Assembly: GCA_947629255.1 (NCBI GenBank)
Contig: CANRDF010000001.1
Span: 758-64,757 of the forward strand
Direction: 5' to 3'
DNA length: 64,000 nt
Source: an uncultured Bacilli bacterium
GTDB lineage: Bacteria; Bacillota_I; Bacilli_A; RF39; UBA660
Shown here: positions 17,575 to 47,464 of the stretch, in pieces
Numbering within the stretch: the stretch's first letter is position 1
Layout: each line of letters opens with the position of its first letter
Translations under genes and position numbers: made by a program
Notes under the pieces: generated by a model
Databases searched by the model: none
The model's input: the letters and a program-made list of their open reading frames with translations, nothing else
Told to the model about the DNA's origin: nothing

Positions 17575-18714
17575 TTATTCTTCATTTTTTTTCATGAAAC
17601 TTAATTTTTCATATACCATTTTAAAATAAAGTAAAAATTTATTTATTTCATCTGTTGTTGTTAAATGAGAAAAACTAATTCTTAATGTACTAGAAGCTCT
17701 TTTTAAATCATTATACATTGCCATAACCGAAGTTGATATCTCTCCACTTGCACATGCCGTATTCGTACTTACATAAACTTCATGTTCTTCTAAGGCATGC
17801 AAGAACGTTTCAGCTTTCATATCCATTAAAGAAATATTTAAAATATGCGGAATACAAATATTAGAGTGATTAATTAAAACTCCATCATATTTTTTTAAAT
17901 CTTCTACAACTTTATCATTTAATCTTTTGATAAAATTTTCTCTTTTATCTAAATCTGTTGTTGCAAGACGAATCGCTTTCGCGAATGCTACAATTAACGG
18001 TACTGGTGGTGTTCCAGGATTTAATGTGTTGGTATGTCCACTTCCATATAATAAAGGTGTTAATGGCACACGACTATTTTTATATAATAAACCAATCCCT
18101 TTTGGTCCATAGATTTTATGAGCTGAAACACTTGCTAAATCCACATCATGAAAATTCACAGGAACTTTTCCTAAAGCCTGCGTCATATCACTGTGAAAGA
18201 AAGTTTGATTATTTTCTTTTTTAATCACTTGCCGAATCATTTTTAAAGGTTGTCTTATTCCAGTTTCACTATTGACAGCACAGATGCTTACTAGAATCGT
18301 ATCTGGTCTCATTTTCTTTTTTAAATCTTCAAAATCAATTAAACCATCTTCTTTATTATCAACATAACTAATCTCAAAACCAATACTTTCTAGATATTTA
18401 CAAATTTCATAAATAGAAGGATGCTCTAGTTTCGATACTATAATGTGATTTCCCATTCGCATATTGGCTAAACTGGTTCCAATAAGTGCTAGATTATTGG
18501 ACATCGTCGCTCCACTCGTAAAAGTAATTTCACTTTCTAAGACATTAAAGGTATCACTAATTTGTTTTATTGCACTGTGAACTAAAGCTTTGGACTTCAC
18601 ACCTAAACTATGAATGGAATTTGGATTTCCTGAAAAATCTCTTGTACTTCTAATATAAGACTCCAAAACATCATAATTCACTGGTGTTGTTGCACTGTAA
18701 TCAAGATAAATCAT
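17575..18714 (-). CDS. cysteine desulfurase (NifS/IscS/NifZ family, class V aminotransferase)
   Basis: PLP-lysine motif SAHKIYGPKG. 379 aa. Adjacent to ezrA, as nifZ is in B. subtilis. Confidence 0.85.
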   Translation of the reverse strand: MIYLDYSATTPVNYDVLESYIRSTRDFSGNPNSIHSLGVKSKALVHSAIKQISDTFNVLESEITFTSGATMSNNLALIGTSLANMRMGNHIIVSKLEHPSIYEICKYLESIGFEISYVDNKEDGLIDFEDLKKKMRPDTILVSICAVNSETGIRQPLKMIRQVIKKENNQTFFHSDMTQALGKVPVNFHDVDLASVSAHKIYGPKGIGLLYKNSRVPLTPLLYGSGHTNTLNPGTPPVPLIVAFAKAIRLATTDLDKRENFIKRLNDKVVEDLKKYDGVLINHSNICIPHILNISLMDMKAETFLHALEEHEVYVSTNTACASGEISTSVMAMYNDLKRASSTLRISFSHLTTTDEINKFLLYFKMVYEKLSFMKKNEE

Positions 18715-19339
18715 TTTGATTCCCTCCTAACAATATATCACGAATTTGTAACCAACTGACAACTCTTCTTACACCACGTTCTTCGAGTTCTTCTCTTGTA
18801 AACTCACGATTATGTAGATGGTCTAATAAGAGTTTTGTTTCTCCATAACCTTTTAAATTTCCAAACTTATCATCAATTTTAATATCACACATAATCAAAT
18901 CTTTACTTCCTGTTAAAATGATTTTCTTAGGGTCAATAAAAGGTAAGTTCTTTCTAATCCATTCATATTTATATTTTGCCATGATGCTACTTTCATCTAT
19001 TCTTCTTTTATCAACAAAAGCTGAAACAATATAGATATCATACACTTCATTTAATTCTTGAATGACGGAGATGGCATCAGGCAAGGCCTTAGCATGTTCA
19101 TAAACATTAACATTTTGATAAAAATAATCTAAAAACTTTTCACGTTTCTCTTCAGGAATGATATCTTCTACAAAATAGGTTTCGATATCTTCATACTGAT
19201 AATTCGTTCCCATGAATTTATTTACTTCTTCTAAATAACTGGGAGAACATATGGTTTCATCTAAATCAATCATCAACTTCTTCTTCATGTTAAGCTCCCT
19301 GATACTCATCCAATAATTTTTTATAGATACCTGGTTCAA
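18701..19339 (-). CDS. HAD-superfamily 5-prime(3-prime)-deoxyribonucleotidase-like hydrolase
   Basis: DxD motif LMIDLDETI at the N-terminus. Confidence 0.5.
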   Translation of the reverse strand: MNQVSIKNYWMSIRELNMKKKLMIDLDETICSPSYLEEVNKFMGTNYQYEDIETYFVEDIIPEEKREKFLDYFYQNVNVYEHAKALPDAISVIQELNEVYDIYIVSAFVDKRRIDESSIMAKYKYEWIRKNLPFIDPKKIILTGSKDLIMCDIKIDDKFGNLKGYGETKLLLDHLHNREFTREELEERGVRRVVSWLQIRDILLGGNQNDLS

Positions 19340-34471: not shown

Positions 34472-36271
34472 TTATGGAGTAAGGATAAGTCGAAAAGTAT
34501 TTCCTATACCTGCTATACCACGAGCACCCATAAATGTGCTAATTCCCGATTCACTTCCATGACTCATACTTCCATTTCGAAGAAACCACGGAAAATCTGA
34601 ATAAATAAAGTATGCCATATCAGCAAAATAACTACTTATGGATTGTGTAAGATTTTGACCATAACTATACTGAATGGTATAAAAAGGACCAGTCTCTTTT
34701 GTAGCATCCCCTAAATGTCCTAAGAAATAATTTTTCTCAGTGGTACCAAATTCGTATAAATCATAATATTTACTTTGAGGCATAAGTAATCCATCTTCTT
34801 TTTCTCCATCCATTTTAGAATAGGGACCATTAAATCCAGAATTTGTAGTAGAATTAATTCCCGTAGTAGGTGTTCTATTAGTAAGAGAAGATTGCATAAC
34901 CCCCATAACAAATTCTCCTGCTCCTCCAGACATATCATAAATTCCTGAATAATTTCCTGTTGTGCTTGATTCCATGCTTAACGGATTATAATAATTATAA
35001 CTATAGTTCCCATCCTGATTGATTTTCACATTTTCGTATTTATTACATTCTTCATTTGATGCTGTATATCCACAAGTTGCATCTTTACTTGCAGAATATC
35101 CTGTTATATAATTACCATTATTATTTAATCTTACTTCTTTACATTCTGTTTCACTGCATCTACCATATTTGGAATAAGTCAAATAGAAAACTGCACCCCA
35201 TTCTGTGTTTTTCATCATATGACTATCTAAATCCCGTAAATAATTATAAGAATTATAAAATGCATGAGAAATATCGATAGATCTCCAACTATAAGTATTA
35301 GGTTTTATTTGAATAGCGGAACTATTTAACACATTATAATTTTCAATGAGTGTTGTTCCAGTTTCAAATTTGCCGACCCACATTCCATTTGCATGAAAAG
35401 AGACAAAAGCAGGATGAGTCAGCCAATCATTTTGTTGAGTACCAGTCGATAAACCAGAATCTACAGTTTCATAGACTATTTTATATGGATTTTTTAAGCC
35501 TAAATTTGGAACACTATCGTTGTTTGAATGTACGCCTAAAGAAGTTCTGTCAGAATAATTATTATATGTACTTTCACTTTCTTTTAATTGATATCTATAC
35601 CTTGGAATCCACACAAAATAACTTTCAATATCACTTTCGGGTATTTCTTGTCCAGATGCATAATTATCTGACACACCATCTTTAAGTATCACGGCATTTG
35701 CCCATTGTTTATTGGCATAATTATACCATTCATCCGTAATATCTGCTTTTATGACTTTTCCACCATAATTTTGCAAAGCATTTATGTATTCTACATCACT
35801 TGGCTTAGCATTATTCATAATTTGAACTGGGACAAGTCGTCCATTTCCAAGATCTGGTATAGCACCGTTTAATTCTGAATCCTTATAAATTTGTTTGAAA
35901 TAAAGATAGCATTTTGTTTTCGTAGTAGAAACATTTTTAATTTCTATACTCCAATTTTCATAATCCCAATTAACATTACTTACCTGTTTGTCATTTAATA
36001 AATCTACACAATAACTAGAACTTGTATCTAATGAATAACCTTCTCCTTTTTTAGGAGCTTCTTTTACTATGCCATCATCTTTATAAAAAACAAACTCTAA
36101 ATCTCCCATGTCCCCTACTTTTCCTTTAATCACATTTTGATTTGTTCTTACTTCAAATATCGCAAATGTTCTATAAAGTATTACTCCACTAACTAGTAAA
36201 ATACATGTTATTGTAAACACTATGATCCCTATTCTTTTGTTATCTCTTTCTTTAAATTTTTTTAATTTCAT
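34472..36271 (-). CDS. secreted protein with SipW/TasA-like signal peptide (paralog family, divergent C-terminus)
   Basis: N-terminal 100 aa nearly identical to the 461-aa paralog (MKLKKFKERDNKRIGIIVFTI...LYRTFAIFEV). Promoter TTGACA-17-TATAAT. Confidence 0.6.
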   Translation of the reverse strand: MKLKKFKERDNKRIGIIVFTITCILLVSGVILYRTFAIFEVRTNQNVIKGKVGDMGDLEFVFYKDDGIVKEAPKKGEGYSLDTSSSYCVDLLNDKQVSNVNWDYENWSIEIKNVSTTKTKCYLYFKQIYKDSELNGAIPDLGNGRLVPVQIMNNAKPSDVEYINALQNYGGKVIKADITDEWYNYANKQWANAVILKDGVSDNYASGQEIPESDIESYFVWIPRYRYQLKESESTYNNYSDRTSLGVHSNNDSVPNLGLKNPYKIVYETVDSGLSTGTQQNDWLTHPAFVSFHANGMWVGKFETGTTLIENYNVLNSSAIQIKPNTYSWRSIDISHAFYNSYNYLRDLDSHMMKNTEWGAVFYLTYSKYGRCSETECKEVRLNNNGNYITGYSASKDATCGYTASNEECNKYENVKINQDGNYSYNYYNPLSMESSTTGNYSGIYDMSGGAGEFVMGVMQSSLTNRTPTTGINSTTNSGFNGPYSKMDGEKEDGLLMPQSKYYDLYEFGTTEKNYFLGHLGDATKETGPFYTIQYSYGQNLTQSISSYFADMAYFIYSDFPWFLRNGSMSHGSESGISTFMGARGIAGIGNTFRLILTP

Positions 36272-36367
36272 GTGAATCACCTATATATTCCCATTCGTTC
36301 TGTATGGATTATAATCAAATTATACATTCATATTGTATGCTTGTCAAGAAAGGATGAAAGTATAAAT

Positions 36368-36586
36368 ATGAAATTTATTGCAAATGATTACTCAGAAAAA
36401 GATGTCATGAAATTTTTAAGGGAAGGAACCGGACTCATTCAAGAAGAGTTTGGAAAAAGTATTGGTCTTAGTGGGATGACCATTCAAGGATATGAAAGAG
36501 GAATTAGAAATTATACCTTTAAAACATTTATGAAAATCATAAAAAAACATGGTTATACAGTAACCATTGAAAAAAAGAAGAATTAA
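36368..36586 (+). CDS. small XRE-type HTH protein divergent from the SipW-signal paralog
   Basis: 72 aa from MKFIANDY, with LIQEEFGKSIGLSGMTIQGYERG. Aligns with 31281-31496. Confidence 0.55.
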   Translation: MKFIANDYSEKDVMKFLREGTGLIQEEFGKSIGLSGMTIQGYERGIRNYTFKTFMKIIKKHGYTVTIEKKKN

Positions 36587-36614: not shown

Positions 36615-39248
36615 TTATTTTTTAATAAGTTTTCTTACTTGAACTTCCTCTTTATCTAAAATAATTGCATTCGTTAAATCAAATTTTTCATTAACTCTAG
36701 GATCATCACTTAATATGACACGGCAACCTGATAAATTGCCTTTTGTCTTTATTAATTCTAATTTAGGATGCTTAATTTTATTTAAATCAATAAACGCATA
36801 AGTTTTTCTTAAATTGGCCCCATTTATATTAACATCTGTAAAATCTTTACCACTTAAGTCTAAACCTTCCAAATTACAACTTCTTAAACTACGAAAACTG
36901 ATTTTTTGAGGGTCAATATGAGCATTCGTTCCTTTTAAATTAGCGCCCTCTAGGTAAAAGTGTCCAAAATCTATTTTACTTAAATCTAAATTTTCAAAAT
37001 TGGTATATGATAAATCCCAATCACAACTCTCCTCTATAGTTAGTATATTTATATGAGCACTTGTATTTTTTAAATTGGCCCCGGTAATACAAACATCTTT
37101 AAAATCTGCTTTAGATAAATCAAGTCCTTCTAAATTAGTACCTTCTAAACTTTTTTCACACACTTTTTGAGGATTAATATGAGCATTCGTTCCTGATAAG
37201 TTTGCACATTTTATCTCACAGCCCGAAAAATTTTTGGAAGCCATAGGAACATTCCTCAGATTTACATCTATTAAACATTTTTTAAAAACACACTGTGGAT
37301 CTATATTTACAAGTGTATTTACAAAACTTGCACCTTTTATCATCGTATGATTAAAATTTGCTTTTTGAAGATTACAACCTTCTAAATTACAGTTTTCTAC
37401 TGAATTTTTTGCAAGCGTTTGAGGATTGATAGGAGCATGAGTATTTTTTAAATTCGTATTTTTTAAAATGGCTCTTGAAAAATCAGATTTTGATAAATCA
37501 AGTCCTTCAAAGTTACAATCTGTAAAATTTTTATAACGCATCTCTTTTGGATCAATATGAGCATTTGTTCCTTTTAATTTTGTTTTATATAGTTTTATTT
37601 TTGAAAAATCCACATTCGATAAATCTATATCTGTAAAATCAACTTCCGAAAAATCTTGTTGAAGAGCTTTTTCCATCCCAATTTTTTGAATAATGATTTC
37701 TTTTTTATCAGCATAACTTGCAAAAAGTAAATTAGGACAAGTTGGAGTTAAAATACATTTTCCGTCACAAAAAACAAAAAAATCTTCTGTATAAGGATTT
37801 TGCATGATAAAACAATTTTCTATATTGCTTTTTACATCATGATTGATAAATACTTCTCCTGGCACTATGTAAGCAAACGTATCTTTTAAATTTGTTTCTT
37901 CTAAATATACCCCTGCAAAGGACACATGGGATAAGTCTAAGCCTTCTAAATTGCATCTTCCTAAACTTTTATTAAGAATTTTTTGAGGATCAATATGTGC
38001 ATTTGTTCCTTTTAAGTTTGCACCTCTTATTTGTACATCTGTAAAATCAGCTTCTGATAAATCAAGGCCTTCTAAATTGCAGTCTTTTAAACTTTGTCCT
38101 ACCACTTTTTGTGGATCTATATGAGATCCAGTTCCTTTTAGATTAGATCCTTCTATATCACAACCTGTGAAATCTTTACCACTTAAGTCTAAGCCTTCAA
38201 GATTAGCATAAGATAGTCTTTTATTTTCAATCGTTTGAGGATCAATGTGTGCACCCGTGTCTTTTAAATTTGCCATTTCTATTTCACAACCAGTGAAATC
38301 TTGCCCACTTAAGTCTAAGCCTTCAAGTTTTGCCAAAGCTAGACTTTTTCCTGCAATCGTTTGAGTATTAATATGTGCCCCTGTATTTCTTAAATTAGCT
38401 CCTACGATCCCAACATCTGTAAAATCTACAGTAGATAAATCTATACCGCTTAAATCTGTATATTCAAAATTTTTGCTGTTAGCTTTTTCTATTCCAATTC
38501 TTTGAATGACTTCTTCTTTCGCTTTTCCTAAATAAGAAAGTGGTCTTAGTCGAAGCTGAATTTGTTTTACTTTCTTCCAAATTGATGTATAAAAAATACT
38601 TTTCTCTTCGATTACTTCCACTTTTGTTTCTTTTTCTTCGATAGAAATTATATCTTGTTTGGTAGAAAAAAGATAATCTTCTAAAATAGTCTCTAATGTA
38701 TAATTTTCTAAATGTGCTGGTAAAGAAAGAAGACTTGATTTTCCATAACTTTGAATACTTTCTATTAAATATGGAAATTTTTTTAAATCTTGATAATAAT
38801 TTATATATTCTTCCTTGTCTTCTTGATAATCTTTCATAATTTTTTTAAGAAGCAAATTGTGAAAACGCATATAAATATCTTTTTGAAGATTCATATTTCC
38901 AAAAGTTAAGACTATTTTTTCTAATTTGCTTTCGATAATATCAAATTTTTCTAAATTCACATCTAAATTCCAATCTTCAGTTAAATGAATAAGTTCTAAA
39001 AATAAAATATAAATTTCTAAATCCATTTCTAGTTTCATGAGTTCTACAGATAGCTCTGTTTCTGGATTTCCATAGTGATTTAGAACTAAACTTCCTTCTT
39101 TTTGTTCTTGTTCTTTTTTTAATTTATAACTCGAAATCAACAAATCTAATTTCTTACTTTCTTTTTCAAGCGAAACAGAGTATGTTTTTAATTCTTCTAT
39201 CACTGTTTTTAAATACTCGATTTTATTGATATTTTCCATTTGTAACAT
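36615..39248 (-). CDS. pentapeptide-repeat protein with N-terminal coiled-coil domain (paralog 1)
   Basis: Start MLQMENINKIEY with RBS GGGAGG. More than 15 copies of the 40-aa unit CNLEGLDLSxxDFTxxxIxGANLKGTNAHIDPQK. Conserved C-terminus GCRVILSDDPRVNEKFDLTNAIILD. Confidence 0.7.
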   Translation of the reverse strand: MLQMENINKIEYLKTVIEELKTYSVSLEKESKKLDLLISSYKLKKEQEQKEGSLVLNHYGNPETELSVELMKLEMDLEIYILFLELIHLTEDWNLDVNLEKFDIIESKLEKIVLTFGNMNLQKDIYMRFHNLLLKKIMKDYQEDKEEYINYYQDLKKFPYLIESIQSYGKSSLLSLPAHLENYTLETILEDYLFSTKQDIISIEEKETKVEVIEEKSIFYTSIWKKVKQIQLRLRPLSYLGKAKEEVIQRIGIEKANSKNFEYTDLSGIDLSTVDFTDVGIVGANLRNTGAHINTQTIAGKSLALAKLEGLDLSGQDFTGCEIEMANLKDTGAHIDPQTIENKRLSYANLEGLDLSGKDFTGCDIEGSNLKGTGSHIDPQKVVGQSLKDCNLEGLDLSEADFTDVQIRGANLKGTNAHIDPQKILNKSLGRCNLEGLDLSHVSFAGVYLEETNLKDTFAYIVPGEVFINHDVKSNIENCFIMQNPYTEDFFVFCDGKCILTPTCPNLLFASYADKKEIIIQKIGMEKALQQDFSEVDFTDIDLSNVDFSKIKLYKTKLKGTNAHIDPKEMRYKNFTDCNFEGLDLSKSDFSRAILKNTNLKNTHAPINPQTLAKNSVENCNLEGCNLQKANFNHTMIKGASFVNTLVNIDPQCVFKKCLIDVNLRNVPMASKNFSGCEIKCANLSGTNAHINPQKVCEKSLEGTNLEGLDLSKADFKDVCITGANLKNTSAHINILTIEESCDWDLSYTNFENLDLSKIDFGHFYLEGANLKGTNAHIDPQKISFRSLRSCNLEGLDLSGKDFTDVNINGANLRKTYAFIDLNKIKHPKLELIKTKGNLSGCRVILSDDPRVNEKFDLTNAIILDKEEVQVRKLIKK

Positions 39249-39299
39249 AAGAAGACCTCCCTGCAAGCTTATTATAACAAAGTACCATAAATTTTCAAT

Positions 39300-39323
39300 A
39301 AAAAACGAATCTTTGATGACTCG
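39300..39323 (-). terminator. conserved terminator (copy 1 of 4) after the PHP gene
   Basis: CGAGTC-loop-GATTCG with a G-U wobble, then a U-run. The TTGAAA-N16-TATAAT promoter of paralog 1 follows. Confidence 0.6.
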
Positions 39324-39348
39324 CTGTTTATATTTCGTAGAATAAAAT

Positions 39349-40236
39349 TTATATCTTTTGTACTTTATTAATCCAGTCTTGAATAAAACTAGCAGGAATA
39401 TTTAAATTCTTGTCTTTTCCTGTTCCCATTTCTATATCTGGTTTTGTTTTTGCGTGATAATCCGAACCACCAGAAATATATTTATGATATTTATGAGCTA
39501 AATTTTTAATCAACTCACGTTCTTCTAAAGAAAATAAAGGATATTCTGCTTCAACACCATCTACATTAGTTGTTGCTAAAATAGTTTCTATTGTTTGTTG
39601 TTTATTATCAAAAGGATATAAAAATGGATGGGCTAAAAATGCTAATCCTCCCGCGTCATGAATTCTATCCACAACTTCTTTGATAGTTAAGAAATGAACC
39701 GTTTCATCATAATAGAAAACGCTATGCCTATTACTCGCGTGCATTCTAAAAAAACCAGTAGCCGTGAAATTTCCATATTGTTTAATTAATTCCTCATTGT
39801 CTTTATAACTTAGAATTTCATTTGCTATGACAAAAGATGCCCATTGTTTGGTTGGATCATTCCGATCAATATATAAATTCTCTTTGTTAAATTTAAATCC
39901 CAATTCTTCAATTTTCTTTGTGAATGCTTTTAATGCTTCATTTTGTAATGTTTCTTGATCAATTTGATGAATTTTTAATTTTTTATAATCTATTCCATAT
40001 GCGAGTATTTCTATTGGAACATGTTCATAAACTGCTTTCAGTTCCGATCCTGGTATAATCATACCAGAAAATTTTTCTCTTAAACTTGGATTTTCCTCAA
40101 GTTCTTGATAAGCCGCAACTTGATCATGATCCGTAATGGAAATGATCTCAAGTTTTTGATTTTCTGCATTACTTAAAAGTTCTGCTAAACTATCTGTTCC
40201 ATCTGAATAATTTGTATGCATATGCAAGTCGATCAT
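39349..40236 (-). CDS. PHP-domain metal-dependent phosphoesterase
   Basis: N-terminus MIDLHMHTNYSDGTDS. Only 28 bp after the paralog 2 stop, with its own RBS. No terminator in between. Confidence 0.75.
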   Translation of the reverse strand: MIDLHMHTNYSDGTDSLAELLSNAENQKLEIISITDHDQVAAYQELEENPSLREKFSGMIIPGSELKAVYEHVPIEILAYGIDYKKLKIHQIDQETLQNEALKAFTKKIEELGFKFNKENLYIDRNDPTKQWASFVIANEILSYKDNEELIKQYGNFTATGFFRMHASNRHSVFYYDETVHFLTIKEVVDRIHDAGGLAFLAHPFLYPFDNKQQTIETILATTNVDGVEAEYPLFSLEERELIKNLAHKYHKYISGGSDYHAKTKPDIEMGTGKDKNLNIPASFIQDWINKVQKI

Positions 40237-40264
40237 TTTATTTACCTCTTTCTTTTCATTTCTC

Positions 40265-42196
40265 TTATTTAATCATTTTTTCAATTGAGCTTTCATTTAA
40301 AATCGTTGCATTTGTTAAATCAAATTTTTCATTGATTAAAGGATTATCATTTAATATGATACGGCATCCCGACAAATCTCCTTTTTTCGTTAAATATTTT
40401 AATGTTTCATAACAATAACGAATTTTATTTAAGTCAATGAAAGCATTTGTTTCTCTTAAATTAGCTCCGTATATAGAACAATATGTAAAATCTGCACTAG
40501 ACAAATCAAGGCCTTCTAAATTACAATAATCTAAAATTTTTCCTTGAACTTTTTGAGGGTCAATATGAGCATTGGTTCCTTTTAAATTGGCTCCACCTAT
40601 ATAACATTTTGTAAAATCTTGACTACTTAAGTCAAACCCTTCAAAATTGACACCAGATAGATTTTTCTCCTTAATGGTTTGAAGATCAATATGAGCATTT
40701 GTACCTTTTAGATTGGCTCCTGATATATCACAATCCGTAAAATCGGCATTTGACAAATCAAGTCCTTCTAAGTTACAATTTCTTAAACTTTTCTCTTCCA
40801 CTTTTTGAGGATCAATATGTGCATTGGTTCCTTTTAGATTAGCTGCTCGTATAGTACAGTCGGTAAAATCTTGACTATTTAAATCTAAGTTTTCGAGATC
40901 GGTATGGTATAAATTTTTTCGTTTCACAGTTTGCGGATTAATATGTGCTCCGGTATTTTTTAAATTAGCTTTTGAGATGTCAACATCTGTAAAATCCGCA
41001 CTCGACAAATCAAGCCCTTCTAAGTTACAACCTTCTAAACATTTCCATTTTGCTTTTTGTGGATCTATATGAGCATTTGTACCTTTTAAATTTGCTCCCA
41101 TAATCTCACAACCCGTAAAATCCTGATGGCTTAGCTCTAATCCTTCAAAATTGACTTCAATTAATCTTTTCAGAGCAATAGTTTGAGGATCAATAAAAAC
41201 TTTGGCATTTTTTAAATTAACTCCTTCTATATAAACACCTGTAAAATCCGCATTAGAGAGATCTAAACCTTCTAAATTGCATCTTCTTAAATCTTTATTA
41301 TAAATTTTTTGAGGATTAATACGCGCAGATGTATTACTTAAATCACAACGAAAAATCCATGCATCAGTAAAGTCTACAGTAGATAAATCAATACCACTTA
41401 AATCTGCATCTCTAAAATGTTTTGATTTTGCTCTTTCTACTCCAACTCTTTCAATAACTGCTTCTTTTGCTTTTCTTAAATAAGCAAGTGGAATCATTTC
41501 AGATTGAATTCTTTTTAATGTGCTCCTAAACGAAGTATGAGTAGAACTCTTTTCTTCTTTCACTTCGACTTTCGTCTCTTTTTCTTCAATAGAGATGATT
41601 TCTTGCTTAGTAGAACAAAGATAGTCTTCTAATATAGTCTCTAATGTATAATTTTCTAAATGTTCTGGTAAAGAAAGAAAATTTGCTTTTCCATAACTTT
41701 GAATACTCTCTATTAAGTATGGAAATTTTTTTAAATCTTGATAGTAATTTATATATTCTTCTTTTTCTTCTTGATAATCTTGAATGATTTTTTTAAGAAG
41801 CAAATTATGATAACGTTTATAAATCTCTTTTTGAAGATCCATATCCCCAAAAGTTAAAACAAGCTTTTCTAGTTTGTTTTCAATAATATCAAATTTTTCT
41901 AAATTCACATCTAAATTCCAATCTTCTGTTAAATGAATCAGTTCTAAAAATAAAATATAAATTTCTAAATCCATTTCTATTTTCATGAGTTCTACAGATA
42001 ACTCTGTTTCTGGATTTGCATAAGAACTTAAAACCAAACTTCCTTCTTTTTGTTCTTGTTCTTTTTTTAATTTGTAATTTGAAATTAATAAATCTAATTT
42101 TTGACTTTCCTTTTCGAGTGAAATAGAATATGCTTTTAATTCTTCTATCACTTTTTTTAAATATTCTATTTTATTTATATTTTCCATTTGTAACAT
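40265..42196 (-). CDS. pentapeptide-repeat protein with N-terminal coiled-coil domain (paralog 2)
   Basis: N-terminal ~230 aa nearly identical to paralog 1. Same 40-aa super-repeats and C-terminus. Confidence 0.7.
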   Translation of the reverse strand: MLQMENINKIEYLKKVIEELKAYSISLEKESQKLDLLISNYKLKKEQEQKEGSLVLSSYANPETELSVELMKIEMDLEIYILFLELIHLTEDWNLDVNLEKFDIIENKLEKLVLTFGDMDLQKEIYKRYHNLLLKKIIQDYQEEKEEYINYYQDLKKFPYLIESIQSYGKANFLSLPEHLENYTLETILEDYLCSTKQEIISIEEKETKVEVKEEKSSTHTSFRSTLKRIQSEMIPLAYLRKAKEAVIERVGVERAKSKHFRDADLSGIDLSTVDFTDAWIFRCDLSNTSARINPQKIYNKDLRRCNLEGLDLSNADFTGVYIEGVNLKNAKVFIDPQTIALKRLIEVNFEGLELSHQDFTGCEIMGANLKGTNAHIDPQKAKWKCLEGCNLEGLDLSSADFTDVDISKANLKNTGAHINPQTVKRKNLYHTDLENLDLNSQDFTDCTIRAANLKGTNAHIDPQKVEEKSLRNCNLEGLDLSNADFTDCDISGANLKGTNAHIDLQTIKEKNLSGVNFEGFDLSSQDFTKCYIGGANLKGTNAHIDPQKVQGKILDYCNLEGLDLSSADFTYCSIYGANLRETNAFIDLNKIRYCYETLKYLTKKGDLSGCRIILNDNPLINEKFDLTNATILNESSIEKMIK

Positions 42197-42247
42197 ATAA
42201 TCACCTTATCTATCTCTATTATAGCAAAGAACAGTATATTTTCAAAT

Positions 42248-42273
42248 AAAAAAAACGAATCTTTTATGACTCG
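42248..42273 (-). terminator. conserved terminator (copy 2 of 4)
   Basis: Same element as 39300-39323. Confidence 0.6.
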
Positions 42274-42303
42274 TTATATTGAATAAATTTTTTTCTTAGT
42301 TAT

Positions 42304-43335
42304 TTATTTAACAAGTTTTCTTGTTTGTACTTCTTCTCTATCTAAAATAATCGCATTTGTTAAATCAAATTGTTCATTAACTCTAGGATCATCACTTAAT
42401 ATAACACGACACCCTGATAAATTACCTTTTTTTATTCTTCCTAATTCTAATTCTGTATTGAATTCATAATAATATCGTTTGATTTTATTTAAATCAATAA
42501 ATGCATCAGTTTGTTCTAAATTAGCTCCATATATATTAACATCTGTAAAATCTGCATCCGATAAATTCAAGCCTTTCAAATTACAATTTCTTAAACTTTG
42601 ATATTCGATATTTTGAGGATCTATATGAGCATTGGTATCTCTTAAATCGGTGTCATAAATAGACACACCTGTAAAATCCGCACTCGACAAATCAATTCCT
42701 TCTAAATTACAACAGAATAAACTTTTCCTTTGAACTTTTTGAGGATTAATATGAGCATTCGTTCCCCTTAGATTAGCTCCATCTATGTCACAATCTGTAA
42801 AATCCGCACTCGACAAATCAAGTCCTTCTAAATTACAATATCTTAAACATTTTTCTCTCACTTTCTGAGGATCAATATGCGCATTCGTTCCTTTTAAATT
42901 AGTATTAAAAATGAGTACATCTGTAAAATCTTGAGTGCTTAGGTCTAATCCTTCAAGATTGGCATCATATAGAGTTTTCAAAAAAACAGTTTGAGGATTA
43001 ATAAAAGCTTTTGTATTTTTTAAATTAGCTCCTACTATTCTAACATTGTTAAAGGAAGCTTTAGAAAGATCTATTCCTTCTAAATTACAATCTCCTAAAT
43101 CTTTTTCATACACTTTTTGAGGGTCAATATGCGCATTGGTGTTTTTTAAGTTACACTCTACTACATTTACCCTTGTAAAATCTACAGTAGACAAATCAAT
43201 GCCACTTAAATTCTGCCTGAAAAAAAATCTGATTTTCGCATCGTCCAATCCAATTTTTTGAATAACTGCCATCTTAGCTTTTCCTAAATAAGGCAAAAAC
43301 GTTAATAGATACTGAAGCTTTTTAATATTTTCCAT
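42304..43335 (-). CDS. pentapeptide-repeat protein, short form lacking the N-terminal domain (paralog 3)
   Basis: 343 aa. Starts MENIKKLQY..LGKAKMAVIQKIGLD, then the same repeats and C-terminus. Confidence 0.7.
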   Translation of the reverse strand: MENIKKLQYLLTFLPYLGKAKMAVIQKIGLDDAKIRFFFRQNLSGIDLSTVDFTRVNVVECNLKNTNAHIDPQKVYEKDLGDCNLEGIDLSKASFNNVRIVGANLKNTKAFINPQTVFLKTLYDANLEGLDLSTQDFTDVLIFNTNLKGTNAHIDPQKVREKCLRYCNLEGLDLSSADFTDCDIDGANLRGTNAHINPQKVQRKSLFCCNLEGIDLSSADFTGVSIYDTDLRDTNAHIDPQNIEYQSLRNCNLKGLNLSDADFTDVNIYGANLEQTDAFIDLNKIKRYYYEFNTELELGRIKKGNLSGCRVILSDDPRVNEQFDLTNAIILDREEVQTRKLVK

Positions 43336-43390
43336 AAGATAACCTCCCTATGAGTCTTATTATAGCAAATAATCATGAATTTTCAACTAC

Positions 43391-43415
43391 AAAAAAACGA
43401 ATCTTTTATGACTCG
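43391..43415 (-). terminator. conserved terminator (copy 3 of 4)
   Basis: Same element as the other copies. Confidence 0.6.
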
Positions 43416-43443
43416 TTATATTGAATAAATTTTTTGTTAGCAT

Positions 43444-44364
43444 TTATTTAACCAGTTTTCTTACTTGTACTTCCTCTCTATCTAAAAGAATCGCATTTGT
43501 TAAATCAAATTGTACATTAAATTGAGGATCATCACTTAATATGACACGGCAACCCGATAAATTGCCTCTATTTATAAATGATAATCCTAACTGAACTCCT
43601 ACTCGGAATCCAACTTCTTCGTCATCGTCTCGTTTTATTTTATTTAAATCAATAAGCGCATCGGTTTCTTCTAAATTAGCTCCGTATATAGAACAACCTG
43701 TAAAATCTGCATTCGATAAATTCAAGCCTTTTAAATTACAATGATTTAAACTTTTTGCTCTCACTTTTTGAGGTTCAATATGAGCATTGGTTCCTTTTAA
43801 ATCTGTGAAATCAATCCACACATCTGTAAAATCTGCATTCGATAAATCTAAGCCTCTTAAATTAGTTTTTCTTAAATTTTTACCATATATCTCTTGAGGA
43901 TTAATATGCGCACTCGTTCCTTTTAAATTAACCCCTTCTATAGAACAATCTGTAAAATTTGCATCCGATAAATCTAAACCTTCTAAATTACAATATCTTA
44001 AACTTTTTACTCTTACTTTTTGAGGATCAATATGCGCATTAGTTCCTTTCAAATTAGTATCAAAAAAGAGTACATCTGTAAAATCTTGAGTGCTTAGGTC
44101 TAATCCTTCAAGATTGACACAAAACAAGGTTTTACCAAAAACAGTTTGAGGATCAATATGAGCAAAAGTATCCCTTAAATCACATTCAGAAATCCATACA
44201 TTTGTAAAATCTACAGTTGACAAATCAATACCCCTTAAATTCTTACTGTGAAAATCTCTGCTTTTCGCATTATCTAATCCAATTTTTGAAATCACTTCCA
44301 TCTTAGCTTTTCCTAAATAAGGCAAAAACGTTAATTGATACTGAAGCTTTTTAATATTTTCCAT
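43444..44364 (-). CDS. pentapeptide-repeat protein, short form (paralog 4)
   Basis: Start MENIKKLQYQLTF with RBS GGGAGG. Same repeats and C-terminus. Confidence 0.7.
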   Translation of the reverse strand: MENIKKLQYQLTFLPYLGKAKMEVISKIGLDNAKSRDFHSKNLRGIDLSTVDFTNVWISECDLRDTFAHIDPQTVFGKTLFCVNLEGLDLSTQDFTDVLFFDTNLKGTNAHIDPQKVRVKSLRYCNLEGLDLSDANFTDCSIEGVNLKGTSAHINPQEIYGKNLRKTNLRGLDLSNADFTDVWIDFTDLKGTNAHIEPQKVRAKSLNHCNLKGLNLSNADFTGCSIYGANLEETDALIDLNKIKRDDDEEVGFRVGVQLGLSFINRGNLSGCRVILSDDPQFNVQFDLTNAILLDREEVQVRKLVK

Positions 44365-44422
44365 AATCAAAAACCTCCCTATGGGTCTTATTATAAACAA
44401 AGAACCATATATTTTCAACCAT

Positions 44423-46326: not shown

Positions 46327-46514
46327 TCATAATCACCTATTTCCATATTATGATAGAAAAATAAAACTATTCCTCTGTTCAAAAACAAAATTTTGTATTA
46401 TAATAATGTTGTAAACGCGAGAAAAAGTGAAAAATTATCATTTTTTAATCATATACAACCACTACTACTCGATTATTTCACTTTCTTTTGCGAAAATAGA
46501 TGTAGGTGATAAAA

Positions 46515-46952
46515 ATGAATTTTGAAAGGTTAAGACAATTAAGGAACCTAGAAGGAATTACTCAACAAAATATTGCTGATGTACTTCACGTTCAACGTGC
46601 AACTTATGCAGGTTGGGAAACTGGAAAGGATATCATGCCACTTCGACAATTAAATAAGATTGCCAATAATTATAAGGTAAGCTTAGACTATGTCACTGGA
46701 TTATCAAATGATAATCGTAAGATGAAAAGTAAAATTGGCGATGTGATTGATGTTAATTTAGTTTCTGAAAACTTAAAGAAAACGAGAAAATCTAAAGCCT
46801 TAACTCAAAAAGCAGTTGCAGATGCTCTTCAAACAACTCAGTCTAATATTCATAAATATGAAACTGGAAAATGTTTGATTACAACTGTTTATGCTTTAGA
46901 GTTTGCAAAACACTTCTCATGTTCCTTAGATGACTTATTAGGAAGAAAATAA
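46515..46952 (+). CDS. tandem-HTH XRE-family transcriptional regulator (paralog of 10862-11299)
   Basis: Two HTH units. MNFERLRQL start with the same RBS context (TAGGTGATA...ATGAATTTTGAAAGG). Confidence 0.7.
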   Translation: MNFERLRQLRNLEGITQQNIADVLHVQRATYAGWETGKDIMPLRQLNKIANNYKVSLDYVTGLSNDNRKMKSKIGDVIDVNLVSENLKKTRKSKALTQKAVADALQTTQSNIHKYETGKCLITTVYALEFAKHFSCSLDDLLGRK

Positions 46953-46979: not shown

Positions 46980-47222
46980 TTAAAACATTTTTTCGACTCC
47001 TTTAGGAACTTTATCTTGGGTAATCGTTTCAATAATCTTATCTTCTTTTTCTTTAGAAACAGTTTTCCCAGTCATTTTACTTAATGTCGCGATCACTTCT
47101 CTTAATGTTGCTTCATCTTTCATGTTCCCGTTTTGAAGTTTCTCGGCCAAAGATAGAATGGTATTCTTATCGACTTTGGTCTTTTTTTCAACTTTTTCAA
47201 AAAAATGGTCTCCGAATTCCAT
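46980..47222 (-). CDS. SpoVIF-like small sporulation protein
   Basis: 80 aa, MEFGDHFFEKVEKKTKVDKNTILSLAEKLQNGNMKDEATLREVI... RBS AGGTAGGTG. The 116-aa ORF-track start is rejected. Confidence 0.5.
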   Translation of the reverse strand: MEFGDHFFEKVEKKTKVDKNTILSLAEKLQNGNMKDEATLREVIATLSKMTGKTVSKEKEDKIIETITQDKVPKGVEKMF

Positions 47223-47464
47223 AAAACACCTACCTAATGATATTTTATGAAAGGGAAACCATTTTGTGTTAGTCCATTTTTTGTTCTGATTCATTTTGGA
47301 TTTTGAAAGGAGTGTCCGCCTCAATAACATTCAAGTTTGGACTAACAGTCGCTTTTTCTAAGTGACTGCAACCTATTTTAACGGTCTTAAATCCTTTTTT
47401 CAAGAGAAGATTTTGACAAGTTTTGTATTCTATTATCGAGTATTGTCGAAGATTGTCGAAAATG

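What the first reader, a model, noticed from the sequence alone, without database searches (positions are those of the whole stretch)
36615..44418. Tandem array of four paralogous pentapeptide-repeat proteins with 40-aa super-repeats and an embedded PHP phosphoesterase
Four consecutive minus-strand genes (877, 643, 343 and 306 aa) are built from iterations of CNLEGLDLSxADFTDCxIxGANLKGTNAHIDPQKVxxKSL. That is eight pentapeptides, about two beta-helix coils. All share the identical C-terminal tail GCRVILSDDPRVNEKFDLTNAIILD. The two long forms add a near-identical 230-aa coiled-coil N-domain, and none has a signal peptide. A PHP phosphoesterase is co-transcribed with paralog 2. Pentapeptide proteins (Qnr, MfpA, McbG, AlbG) act as DNA mimics protecting topoisomerases. 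A multi-paralog cytoplasmic array is compatible with an undescribed toxin-defence, anti-phage or variable effector system.
Basis: partly seen in the sequence, partly recalled or inferred. Interest (0 to 1): 0.82.

Follow-up and report, generated by a model that had tools for sequence, protein, structure and literature searches.

The report
Fast-evolving pentapeptide-repeat gene array
An uncultured gut bacterium carries four side-by-side, independently transcribed copies of an unusual pentapeptide-repeat protein built from 42-residue units with one hypervariable face; the family is new and rapidly changing, its function is unknown, and the PHP enzyme gene inside the array is most likely a bystander.

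Summary
The core observation holds. Four minus-strand paralogs (877, 643, 343 and 306 aa) match Pfam Pentapeptide, and a PHP gene lies 28 nt behind paralog 2. Three details need correcting:
- The super-repeat is 42 aa (126 nt), not 40. One "pentapeptide" per unit has 7 residues (TNAHIDP).
- The C-terminal tails are similar (56-83%), not identical. They form the family's solenoid end-cap.
- The N-domain is a compact all-helical domain, not an evident coiled coil.

Each paralog has its own terminator, promoter and ribosome-binding site.

The family is confined to low-GC gut Bacilli/Clostridia metagenome genomes. The N-domain has only 27 cluster representatives among 1.84 billion.

A sister genome has three paralogs instead of four and different repeat numbers, although its flanking proteins are 95-100% identical. 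Another genome has at least ten genes in a row.

Variable residues sit at the same eight unit positions across lineages (dN/dS about 1.3-1.6, against about 0.2 elsewhere).

PHP is a widespread housekeeping-type gene, linked to the array only in this lineage. No known defence, phage or toxin partner was found. One distant relative lies between parE and parC.

Verdict: a new variant of pentapeptide-repeat protein, probably a diversifying binding scaffold. Its mechanism is unproven.

The parts
43444..44364 (-). Paralog D, 306 aa. Short form: start-cap helix, 5 x 42-aa units (aa 42-251, nt 43612-44241), C-terminal cap.
   Evidence: ORF, gene call on an identical contig, PF00805 at 76.9 bits, units.
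44390..44418 (-). Promoter-like site for D (TTGAAA-17-TATAAT, 11 of 12), followed by GGGAGG.
42304..43335 (-). Paralog C, 343 aa. Short form: start-cap helix, 6 x 42-aa units (aa 42-293, nt 42457-43212), C-terminal cap.
43359..43417 (-). Intergenic module D->C: terminator-like hairpin (43417-43396) plus T-run, then promoter-like TTGAAA-16-TATAAT with TG extension (43386-43359).
   Evidence: A 45-nt stretch is 100% identical to the C->B module (family D8).
40265..42196 (-). Paralog B, 643 aa. Long form: N-domain aa 1-195 (nt 41612-42196), disordered linker aa 197-234, cap helix plus 8 x 42-aa units (nt 40397-41494), C-terminal cap and helix (nt 40268-40396).
   Evidence: AF2 model mean pLDDT 86.3 and 94-98 in the repeats. 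DSSP mapping.
42218..42275 (-). Intergenic module C->B: terminator-like hairpin (42275-42254), then promoter-like site (42245-42218).
39349..40236 (-). PHP-domain phosphoesterase, 295 aa, TrpH/YciV-like. It lies 28 nt after B with only an AAGAGG ribosome-binding site, so it is probably co-transcribed with B. Judged a bystander housekeeping gene.
   Evidence: PF02811; NCBIfam RNase RNM and 3',5'-bisphosphate phosphatase below cutoff; PDB relatives 9etk, 7ug9, 3e0f, 2yb1; more than 2,000 homologs and unrelated contexts elsewhere.
39271..39325 (-). Intergenic module PHP->A: terminator-like hairpin (39325-39304), then promoter-like site (39298-39271).
36615..39248 (-). Paralog A, 877 aa. Long double-module form: N-domain (nt 38664-39248), module 1 with 5 units (about nt 37827-38543), internal end-cap plus new start-cap (about nt 37569-37826), module 2 with about 6 units (about nt 36750-37568), C-terminal cap.
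   Evidence: The ortholog in L004 is 94% identical.

Best explanation
The locus is a tandem expansion of a lineage-specific subfamily of cytoplasmic pentapeptide-repeat proteins from an uncultured low-GC gut bacterium (Bacilli, near 'Ca. Ventrenecus').

Shown:
- Each gene is its own transcription unit, with a terminator hairpin, a sigma-A-like promoter and a ribosome-binding site.
- Each protein is modular. A start-cap helix (LxYLGKAKxxVIxKIG) is followed by 5-8 copies of a 42-residue unit and a conserved end-cap (GCRVIL...FDLTNAIILD plus a terminal helix).
- The long forms add a unique roughly 195-residue helical N-domain through a disordered acidic linker.
- The 42-residue unit is eight pentapeptide-like faces, one of them lengthened to 7 residues (T-N-A-H-I-D-P).

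Predicted by AlphaFold2 with high confidence:
- Each unit makes two solenoid turns, of 20 and 22 residues.
- Regular beta-ladders form on only one side. The other side carries 3-10 turns.
- This geometry superposes better on LRR solenoids than on Qnr or MfpA rods.

Inferred mechanism:
- The core is under purifying selection.
- About eight outward-facing positions per unit, mostly on the beta-ladder face, evolve as fast as or faster than silent sites.
- Gene number and unit number change between near-identical genomes.
- I therefore read the proteins as non-enzymatic binding scaffolds that present a diversifying recognition surface. They most plausibly act as stoichiometric binders, decoys or neutralisers of other macromolecules, such as toxins or DNA-handling proteins.
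- The PHP gene is a housekeeping phosphoesterase that the expanding array has enclosed. It is not a functional partner.
For: Identity:
- PF00805 at 77-203 bits.
- PDB sequence hits and Foldseek top hits are all pentapeptide proteins.

Anatomy:
- Period 42; unit consensus.
- AF2 pLDDT 94-98 across the repeats.
- DSSP bridges only at unit positions 1, 16, 21 and 38, with 3-10 turns at 31-33 and 35-37.

Autonomy:
- Four 11-of-12 promoter matches and three hairpin terminators at the paralog boundaries.
- No recurrent neighbour gene in 24 non-redundant loci.

Turnover:
- Syntenic sister locus L004 has 3 paralogs rather than 4. B's counterpart there is 171 aa (about four units) shorter.
- C and D are only about 59% identical to their positional counterpart, while flanking proteins are 95-100% identical.
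- Arrays of at least 10 genes and tandem pairs occur elsewhere.

Selection:
- Gene-wide dN/dS is 0.31-0.33, against 0.003-0.09 for the housekeeping flanks.
- Variable positions defined from distant members (9, 16, 18, 19, 35, 36, 40, 41) give dN/dS 1.26-1.62, against 0.19-0.27 for the rest.

PHP as bystander.

Rarity: N-domain found in 27 of 1.84 billion cluster representatives.
Against: - No binding partner is identified, and no experiment bears on function.
- The hypervariable-face argument is near saturation, so a ratio above 1 is not statistically established. It is equally compatible with a simple lack of constraint on exposed residues.
- The LRR-like geometry rests on one AlphaFold model built from a 15-sequence alignment. 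I could not inspect coordinates.
- Foldseek still ranks pentapeptide structures first by local similarity.
- Pentapeptide proteins with a proven mechanism are mostly topoisomerase protectors, and one relative sits in a parE-parC cluster. That favours the more specific rival below.
- At 306-877 aa the proteins are large for typical immunity or decoy proteins.
Confidence: 0.45

Rival explanations
1. Qnr/MfpA/AlbG/McbG-type topoisomerase protectors. The acidic solenoids mimic DNA, bind gyrase or topoisomerase IV and rescue it from poisons. Multiple paralogs would cover different poisons or the two enzymes.
For: - Pentapeptide family membership.
- Foldseek hits to QnrB1, AhQnr, MfpA and AlbG at probability up to 1.0.
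- Repeat regions are acidic, pI 4.5-5.0, except A's second module at pI 7.0.
- A predicted C-terminal helix could mediate the tail-to-tail dimer seen in Qnr and MfpA (this is inference).
- Family member P0009 lies between ParE-like and ParC-like genes, with its stop codon 11 nt before the ParC-like start.
Against: - Qnr, MfpA and all allele-specific NCBIfam models score 3-10 times below cutoff (for example Qnr 79 against 240, MfpA 63 against 360).
- The proteins are 1.5-4 times longer than Qnr or MfpA, and half carry an extra N-domain.
- Topoisomerase adjacency is seen in 1 of about 35 loci. That member's N-terminal region is unrelated to the window's. The L008 gyrB is 2.7 kb away across infC, rplT and efp.
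- Fast diversification of a surface is unexpected for a ligand as conserved as gyrase.
- There is no poison biosynthesis cluster or mfpB-like GTPase nearby.
Confidence: 0.2
2. An operon-like toxin-defence, anti-phage or effector system in which the PHP phosphoesterase is the catalytic partner and the repeat proteins are sensors or adaptors.
For: - PHP is probably co-transcribed with paralog B (28-nt gap, no promoter or terminator).
- The arrangement is conserved in the sister genome L004.
- PHP dN/dS (0.19) is somewhat higher than that of the core housekeeping flanks.
Against: - PHP homologs are absent from the other loci of about 35 that hold family members.
- PHP has more than 2,000 homologs of constant length. 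Its 58-73% identical orthologs lie in unrelated contexts with no pentapeptide genes.
- PADLOC gave no hit for any of the seven proteins tested, apart from weak HTH matches.
- No relatives of the N-domain form on viral contigs (the scan used N-domain peptide patterns only).
- No recurrent neighbour family.
Confidence: 0.05
3. Strings of orphan immunity-like proteins against polymorphic toxins from competing bacteria, analogous to EsaG/TsaI arrays. This is a specific version of the best explanation.
For: - Tandem, non-identical, signal-less paralogs with their own promoters.
- Copy number and sequence turn over between close relatives, and shared intergenic modules could support unequal recombination.
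- The pattern matches what is described for T7SS immunity genes in Firmicutes (PMC9484751, abstract).
Against: - No toxin, LXG/WXG or T7SS gene lies next to the array in the window or in the other loci.
- The proteins are far larger than known immunity proteins.
- The large polymorphic-toxin survey does not mention pentapeptide immunity proteins.
Confidence: 0.15
4. Structural or regulatory cytoplasmic scaffolds with an ordinary cellular role, for example in sporulation or cell-cycle processes. On this reading the expansion reflects relaxed constraint and slippage-prone repeats rather than conflict.
For: - The array lies between housekeeping and sporulation genes (spoIVA-hbs on one side, cdsA-rseP on the other).
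- Other members also sit among housekeeping genes.
- Overall dN/dS is below 1.
- A cultured Aneurinibacillus has a single short member.
Against: - Copy number differs between near-identical genomes, so no single paralog seems indispensable.
- Variability is concentrated at defined outward positions and conserved across lineages.
- The promoters look sigma-A-like rather than sporulation-specific (a consensus match only).
Confidence: 0.15

Closest known systems
Canonical pentapeptide-repeat proteins (Pfam PF00805; e.g. Np275/Np276, HetL, Rfr23/Rfr32, designed beta1 solenoids)
   Same: - A(D/N)LXX-type pentapeptides with strong profile matches.
- Best PDB sequence hits and best Foldseek hits.
- An N-terminal capping helix, as in HetL (PMC8145042).
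- Multi-copy families of unknown function are known in cyanobacteria, with more than 30 in Nostoc PCC 7120 (PMC8145042).
   Different: - A strictly periodic 42-residue super-unit, with one 7-residue face carrying the invariant A-x-I-(D/N)-P-Q signature.
- Known proteins instead have 20-residue coils interrupted, if at all, by isolated loops (PMC8145042).
- The predicted geometry is LRR-like.
- The genes form tandem arrays with their own promoters.
- The N-domain is unique.
Qnr / MfpA / AlbG / McbG topoisomerase-protecting pentapeptide proteins
   Same: - Cytoplasmic, acidic pentapeptide proteins.
- A C-terminal helix is predicted.
- One distant relative is embedded in a parE-parC cluster.
   Different: - All family-specific models fall below cutoff.
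- 306-877 aa, against about 180-220 aa.
- No Qnr-type loops.
- Low TM-scores.
- Rapidly diversifying and multi-copy.
- No poison biosynthesis or mfp conservon context.
Leucine-rich-repeat solenoids (Roco LRR, internalins, YopM, SDS22, designed LRRs)
   Same: - Roughly 20-22-residue turns.
- One regular beta-ladder side carries the variable residues, and the opposite side carries 3-10 turns.
- Such repeats are typically used as diversifying recognition surfaces (general knowledge).
   Different: - No LRR Pfam family matches at E <= 0.01.
- The sequence is clearly pentapeptide-derived.
- Two alternating turn types make one 42-residue unit.
Tandem strings of T7SS immunity paralogs in Firmicutes (EsaG, TsaI; PMC9484751)
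   Same: Tandem non-identical cytoplasmic paralogs, with evolution apparently driven by recombination between neighbours.
   Different: - No sequence relationship.
- No adjacent toxin or secretion genes.
- Much larger repeat proteins.
TrpH/YciV-type PHP phosphoesterases (RNase AM; 3',5'-nucleoside bisphosphate phosphatase Cv1693) - for the embedded gene only
   Same: - PHP domain.
- Best NCBIfam and PDB relatives.
   Different: - Scores lie far below the equivalog cutoffs (95 against 375; 77 against 400).
- The substrate is unknown.

Membership tests
Pentapeptide-repeat family (Pfam PF00805 / PRP superfamily) | At least eight contiguous A(D/N)LXX pentapeptides; passes the Pfam gathering score. 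| tested here: met
   203.5, 147.1, 107.5 and 76.9 bits against a cutoff of 20.2.
Pentapeptide-repeat family (Pfam PF00805 / PRP superfamily) | [quoted passage not shown] | tested here: inconclusive
   - The AF2 model is confident, but coils alternate between 20 and 22 residues with 3-10 turns.
- Foldseek ranks pentapeptide proteins first, but with TM <= 0.37.
- This is a prediction only; coordinates were not inspected.
Qnr / MfpA / AlbG / McbG topoisomerase protectors | Score at or above the curated NCBIfam cutoff for the family. | tested here: not met
   Qnr 79 against 240; MfpA 63 against 360; QnrA-E, S, VC alleles 34-70 against 425-500.
Qnr / MfpA / AlbG / McbG topoisomerase protectors | About 180-220 aa rod of 8-10 coils that dimerises through a C-terminal helix and mimics DNA in size and shape. 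| tested here: not met
   - 306-877 aa with 10-24 coils and extra domains.
- A C-terminal helix is predicted.
- Dimerisation was not tested.
Qnr / MfpA / AlbG / McbG topoisomerase protectors | Genetic link to topoisomerase genes, a topoisomerase-poison biosynthesis cluster or the mfp conservon. | tested here: not met
   - None in the window.
- Only 1 of about 35 family loci, L039, is embedded between parE- and parC-like genes.
Qnr / MfpA / AlbG / McbG topoisomerase protectors | Binds gyrase or topo IV and protects it from poisons. | not testable with these tools
   Needs biochemistry or MIC assays.
Leucine-rich-repeat proteins | Match to an LRR sequence profile (LxxLxLxxNxL). | tested here: not met
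   No LRR family among Pfam hits at E <= 0.01. The similarity is structural only.
Known anti-phage defence systems (PADLOC-DB) | Any component matches a defence-system model. | tested here: not met
   No hits for A-D, PHP or the 602-aa neighbour. The HTH protein gave only weak generic matches. The NCBIfam HalA hit has E 0.0013, 18 bits against 250.
Polymorphic-toxin immunity gene strings | Adjacency to a toxin or secretion locus, or homology to a known immunity family. | tested here: not met
   No such genes in the window or related loci. Only the tandem-paralog pattern is shared.
TrpH/YciV PHP phosphoesterases (embedded gene) | PHP domain plus an equivalog-level score for RNase RNM or the pAp phosphatase. 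| tested here: inconclusive
   PF02811 passes (34.9 against 26.4). RNase RNM scores 95 against 375 and the bisphosphate phosphatase 77 against 400.

The most novel reading that the evidence does not exclude
The family is a bacterial, cytoplasmic, LRR-like variable recognition repertoire that evolved from pentapeptide repeats. On this reading, arrays of independently expressed solenoids have a hypervariable beta-ladder face that diversifies by substitution, unit gain and loss, and recombination between neighbours. They would recognise and neutralise changing foreign molecules such as toxins, phage proteins or DNA-targeting enzymes. That would be an innate 'binder library' in uncultured gut Bacilli.
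Probability: 0.15. Interest if true: 0.8.

Novelty: new variant of a known kind. Interest (0 to 1): 0.5.

Why it matters
- Most pentapeptide-repeat proteins, tens of thousands of sequences, have no known function. The only well-understood mechanism is DNA mimicry at gyrase.
- This family shows a different evolutionary behaviour. It forms tandem arrays of up to ten or more genes, gene and unit number turn over quickly between near-identical genomes, and variability is confined to one face.
- It also shows a different predicted architecture: a periodic 20+22-residue double coil that resembles LRR solenoids.
- If the prediction holds, the pentapeptide fold can be re-tooled into a diversifying recognition scaffold. 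That would give a concrete, testable handle on what non-Qnr pentapeptide proteins do.
- Practically, it warns against annotating such genes as quinolone-resistance (Qnr-like) determinants in gut metagenomes.

Tried and rejected
- PADLOC, PHROGs and a viral-contig scan for a defence or phage link gave nothing specific. The viral scan used N-domain peptide patterns only, so it tests the N-domain form rather than the repeat family.
- N-domain function:
  - Pfam found nothing even at E <= 5.
  - A PDB profile search found nothing.
- Topoisomerase adjacency across all fetched loci (91 in all, including 47 from the metagenome scan): only L039 qualifies. The L008 gyrB hit was rejected because infC, rplT and efp intervene. 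P0009's N-terminal region is not homologous to the window's N-domain.
- An all-against-all search for recurrent neighbour genes in 24 loci found none. The best was a cation-efflux gene in 4 loci.
- PHP as a partner was rejected after looking at three orthologous contexts.
- The polymorphic-toxin survey (PMC3482391) does not mention pentapeptide proteins.
- The first metagenome scan, with the broad alignment A3, failed because no stretch was conserved enough. It was redone with A4 and returned few close relatives, mostly on short contigs.
- Rfam and tRNA scans found nothing in the array.
- I considered a secretion signal or TM segment in the shared tail or N-terminus. It was rejected on hydropathy, and because the tail is the family-wide solenoid end-cap.

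Full report
**1. What is in the sequence**

The region 36615-44418 holds five minus-strand genes. Promoter-like sites sit directly on or beside the upstream TTG codons of the first and last ORF, so translation should begin at the ATGs at 39248 and 44364. This gives four paralogs:
- A, 877 aa
- B, 643 aa
- C, 343 aa
- D, 306 aa

A 295-aa PHP protein lies between B and A. An independent gene call on an identical metagenome contig gives the same lengths.

All four paralogs match Pfam Pentapeptide far above threshold (77-203 bits against 20.2).

Upstream of the array are hbs (HU) and spoIVA. Downstream are a small XRE regulator, an unannotatable 602-aa membrane-anchored protein, cdsA and rseP. The array therefore sits between two housekeeping blocks, with no mobile-element genes nearby.

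The genome has about 30% G+C. SpoIVA is 89% identical to that of 'Candidatus Ventrenecus stercoripullorum'. The nearest genome record is an 'uncultured Bacilli bacterium' MAG labelled 'Lapin' (which I read as rabbit).

**2.

- **Period.** The super-repeat is 42 residues, not 40. Self-identity peaks at offsets 42, 84 and 126 (25-40%, against about 10% at offset 5). Motif spacing is 42, and DNA repeat spacing is 126 nt.
- **Unit.** Written in pentapeptide register, the unit is N-L-E-G-L | D-L-S-x-A | D-F-T-D-V/C | x-I-x-G-A | N-L-K-G-T | N-A-H-I-D-P-Q | K-V-x-x-K | S-L-x-x-C. One face per unit is therefore two residues longer and carries the near-invariant A-x-I-(D/N)-P-Q signature.
- **Tail.** The C-terminal tail is similar, not identical (56-83% over 45 aa). 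Its L-x-G-C motif is nearly invariant across the wider family. The model shows it as short strands plus a terminal helix. It is the solenoid's end-cap rather than a special signal.
- **N-domain.** The N-domain of A and B is 83% identical. It is predicted to be a compact helical domain (pLDDT 90, pTM 0.84), joined by a disordered linker (residues 197-234, pLDDT below 50).
- **Paralog A.** A is a double module with an internal end-cap and a second start-cap.

**3. Transcription units**

Each of the three intergenic gaps upstream of A, B and C holds, in order:
- a G+C-rich hairpin with a T-run,
- a TTGAAA-16/17-TATAAT site (11 of 12 matches),
- a GGAGG-type ribosome-binding site.

The HU-D gap holds a similar hairpin that the scan did not call, then the same promoter-like site and ribosome-binding site.

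The hairpin modules after D and after C are 100% identical over 45 nt. Only PHP lacks such a module. It follows B by 28 nt with a ribosome-binding site.

The units are therefore D, C, B+PHP and A. These are consensus matches and sequence-based inference, not expression data.

**4. Predicted structure**

AlphaFold2 on B, with a 15-sequence family alignment, gives mean pLDDT 86 and 94-98 across the repeats.

Mapped onto the eight units, beta-bridges occur only at unit positions 1, 16, 21 and 38. Short 3-10 turns occur at positions 31-33 and 35-37. Each unit is therefore two turns, of 20 and 22 residues. A regular ladder forms on one side, and the other side is irregular.

The two structure searches disagree:
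- Foldseek against the PDB ranks pentapeptide structures first (designed beta1 solenoids, QnrB1, AhQnr, MfpA, AlbG, Np275/276), with E-values down to 2e-8. However, the TM-scores are poor (at most 0.37) and rmsd is 11-18 A.

My reading is that this is a pentapeptide-derived solenoid whose periodic two-residue insertion changes the geometry towards an LRR-like form. This is a prediction. I could not inspect coordinates.

**5. Distribution**

A search of 5.8 billion proteins finds only about 25 close relatives, all unnamed metagenome proteins. Everything below them is generic pentapeptide protein.

A scan of 185,579 species-representative genomes finds 32 loci, nearly all low-GC gut MAGs labelled uncultured Bacilli, Tenericutes or Clostridia. 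The 42-residue signature is present in about 30 loci with 23-36% G+C.

A single 177-aa member with three units occurs in cultured Aneurinibacillus aneurinilyticus. The unit is therefore older than the arrays.

A profile of the N-domain finds 27 cluster representatives among 1.84 billion. Nearly all are fused to the same cap-repeat-cap modules.

**6. Turnover**

The syntenic locus in the sister MAG (L004) has the same flanks with three paralogs instead of four. Identities between the two loci:

| Gene(s) | Identity |
|---|---|
| Flanking proteins | 95-100% |
| A | 94% |
| PHP | 91% |
| B | 78%; the L004 counterpart is 171 aa (about four units) shorter |
| C and D against their positional counterpart | about 59% |

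Other genomes also show expansion:
- One MAG with a 'Lapin' label has at least 10 family genes in a row.
- Others have tandem pairs or several dispersed copies.
- The sample that holds an exact copy of the window also holds a fifth N-domain paralog at another locus, on a contig of similar coverage.

**7. Selection**

Gene-wide dN/dS between the window and L004:

| Gene(s) | dN/dS |
|---|---|
| A and B | 0.31-0.33 |
| PHP | 0.19 |
| Der, SpoIVA, HU, CdsA, RseP | 0.003-0.09 |

Within the unit, amino-acid entropy is highest at positions 9, 16, 18, 35, 36, 38, 40 and 41. Defining variable sites independently from distant members gives 9, 16, 18, 19, 35, 36, 40 and 41, which is 7 of 8 the same. With that independent set, dN/dS is 1.26-1.62 at the variable positions and 0.19-0.27 elsewhere.

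Divergence is near saturation. The safe statement is that these outward positions are unconstrained or under diversifying selection, while the core is strongly conserved. Most of them lie on the face that forms the regular beta-ladder. That is the arrangement LRR proteins use for ligand binding (inference and general knowledge).

**8. The PHP gene**

It belongs to the TrpH/YciV group of PHP phosphoesterases. Its homologs number more than 2,000, nearly all 295 aa long. In three other genomes its 58-73% identical orthologs sit in unrelated housekeeping contexts with no pentapeptide genes. Among about 35 loci with family members, PHP is adjacent only in the window's own lineage. It is best seen as a housekeeping gene enclosed by the expanding array.

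**9. Tests of the functional proposals**

- **Defence, phage or effector.** PADLOC found nothing. PHROGs matched only generic pentapeptide families of unknown function. No viral contig encodes the N-domain form; that scan used N-domain peptide patterns only. No neighbour gene recurs across 24 non-redundant loci.
- **Topoisomerase protection.**
  - Every Qnr, MfpA or allele model is far below cutoff, and the sizes and architecture differ.
  - The repeat regions are acidic (pI 4.5-5.0, except A's second module at pI 7.0).
  - One relative (P0009, L039) lies between ParE-like and ParC-like genes, 11 nt before the ParC-like start. I read those genes as topo IV from the PVQRR-type N-terminus; that rests on my own knowledge.
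  - It is the only such case, and its N-terminal region is unrelated to the window's.
  - This is a lead, not a test.

**10. Conclusion**

The finding is real and undescribed, but it is a new variant of a known kind. It is a pentapeptide-repeat subfamily with a 42-residue double-coil unit, an LRR-like predicted geometry, a unique N-domain, and a habit of forming fast-changing tandem arrays in uncultured gut Bacilli.

The best-supported mechanistic reading is a non-enzymatic binding scaffold with a diversifying face (confidence about 0.45). The Qnr/MfpA-type role (about 0.2), an immunity-string role (about 0.15) and an ordinary housekeeping scaffold (about 0.15) remain open. The PHP-centred system idea is largely refuted.

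Noticed in passing
window 34472-36586: A 602-aa protein with an N-terminal membrane anchor (34472-36280, minus strand) has no hit in Pfam (even at E <= 5), NCBIfam, PADLOC or PHROGs. It is paired with a small XRE-type HTH gene (36272-36586, plus strand). A perfect 12-of-12 sigma-70 consensus site (36347-36319, minus strand) lies just upstream. The sister locus L004 has a second HTH plus related-protein pair (17623-19198), so this is another small paralog family beside the array.
   Followed up: partly
window 36615-39248 vs L004 9995-12628: Paralog A has dS of only 0.10 against its ortholog, while flanking housekeeping genes have dS 0.33-0.52. Of 50 amino-acid changes, 36 fall in the second repeat module. 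The 5' half of A looks recently exchanged or converted between the two lineages.
   Followed up: partly
L016 / L036 (MAG Lapin-008 bin25), L036 1-12603: At least ten consecutive family genes (265-878 aa) lie on one strand, next to a RecD2-type helicase gene. Their repeat units come in 42- and 53-residue versions.
   Followed up: partly
L039 5436-12135: A 527-aa family member (P0009) sits between a ParE/GyrB-like gene and a ParC/GyrA-like gene. A truncated-looking sugar-transferase gene lies before it, and only 11 nt separate it from the ParC-like start. This is the only topoisomerase-linked member found.
   Followed up: yes
L091 310-4741: In the same metagenome sample as the exact copy of the window, a fifth N-domain paralog (P0003, 519 aa) lies between a ClpC-like ATPase and trigger factor/Lon. 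A ToxN-type toxin gene (abortive infection, ToxIN family) lies just upstream of the ClpC-like gene.
   Followed up: no
L026 882-1415: Cultured Aneurinibacillus aneurinilyticus ATCC 12856 encodes a single 177-aa protein with three 42-residue IDPQ-type units, in a housekeeping context (Asp23/DAK/DegV/RecG). It could serve as a tractable model for the unit.
   Followed up: no
window 46506-46952 and 46980-47330: A two-HTH XRE-type regulator (148 aa, 100% identical in L004) and a SpoVIF-family gene sit between der and spoIVA. The organism is evidently a spore-former, although related MAG records are labelled 'Tenericutes'.
   Followed up: no
L037 17833-21386: A Cas9 gene lies about 6.5 kb downstream of a tandem pair of N-domain family members in a 'Tenericutes' MAG. 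There is no sign of a functional link.
   Followed up: no
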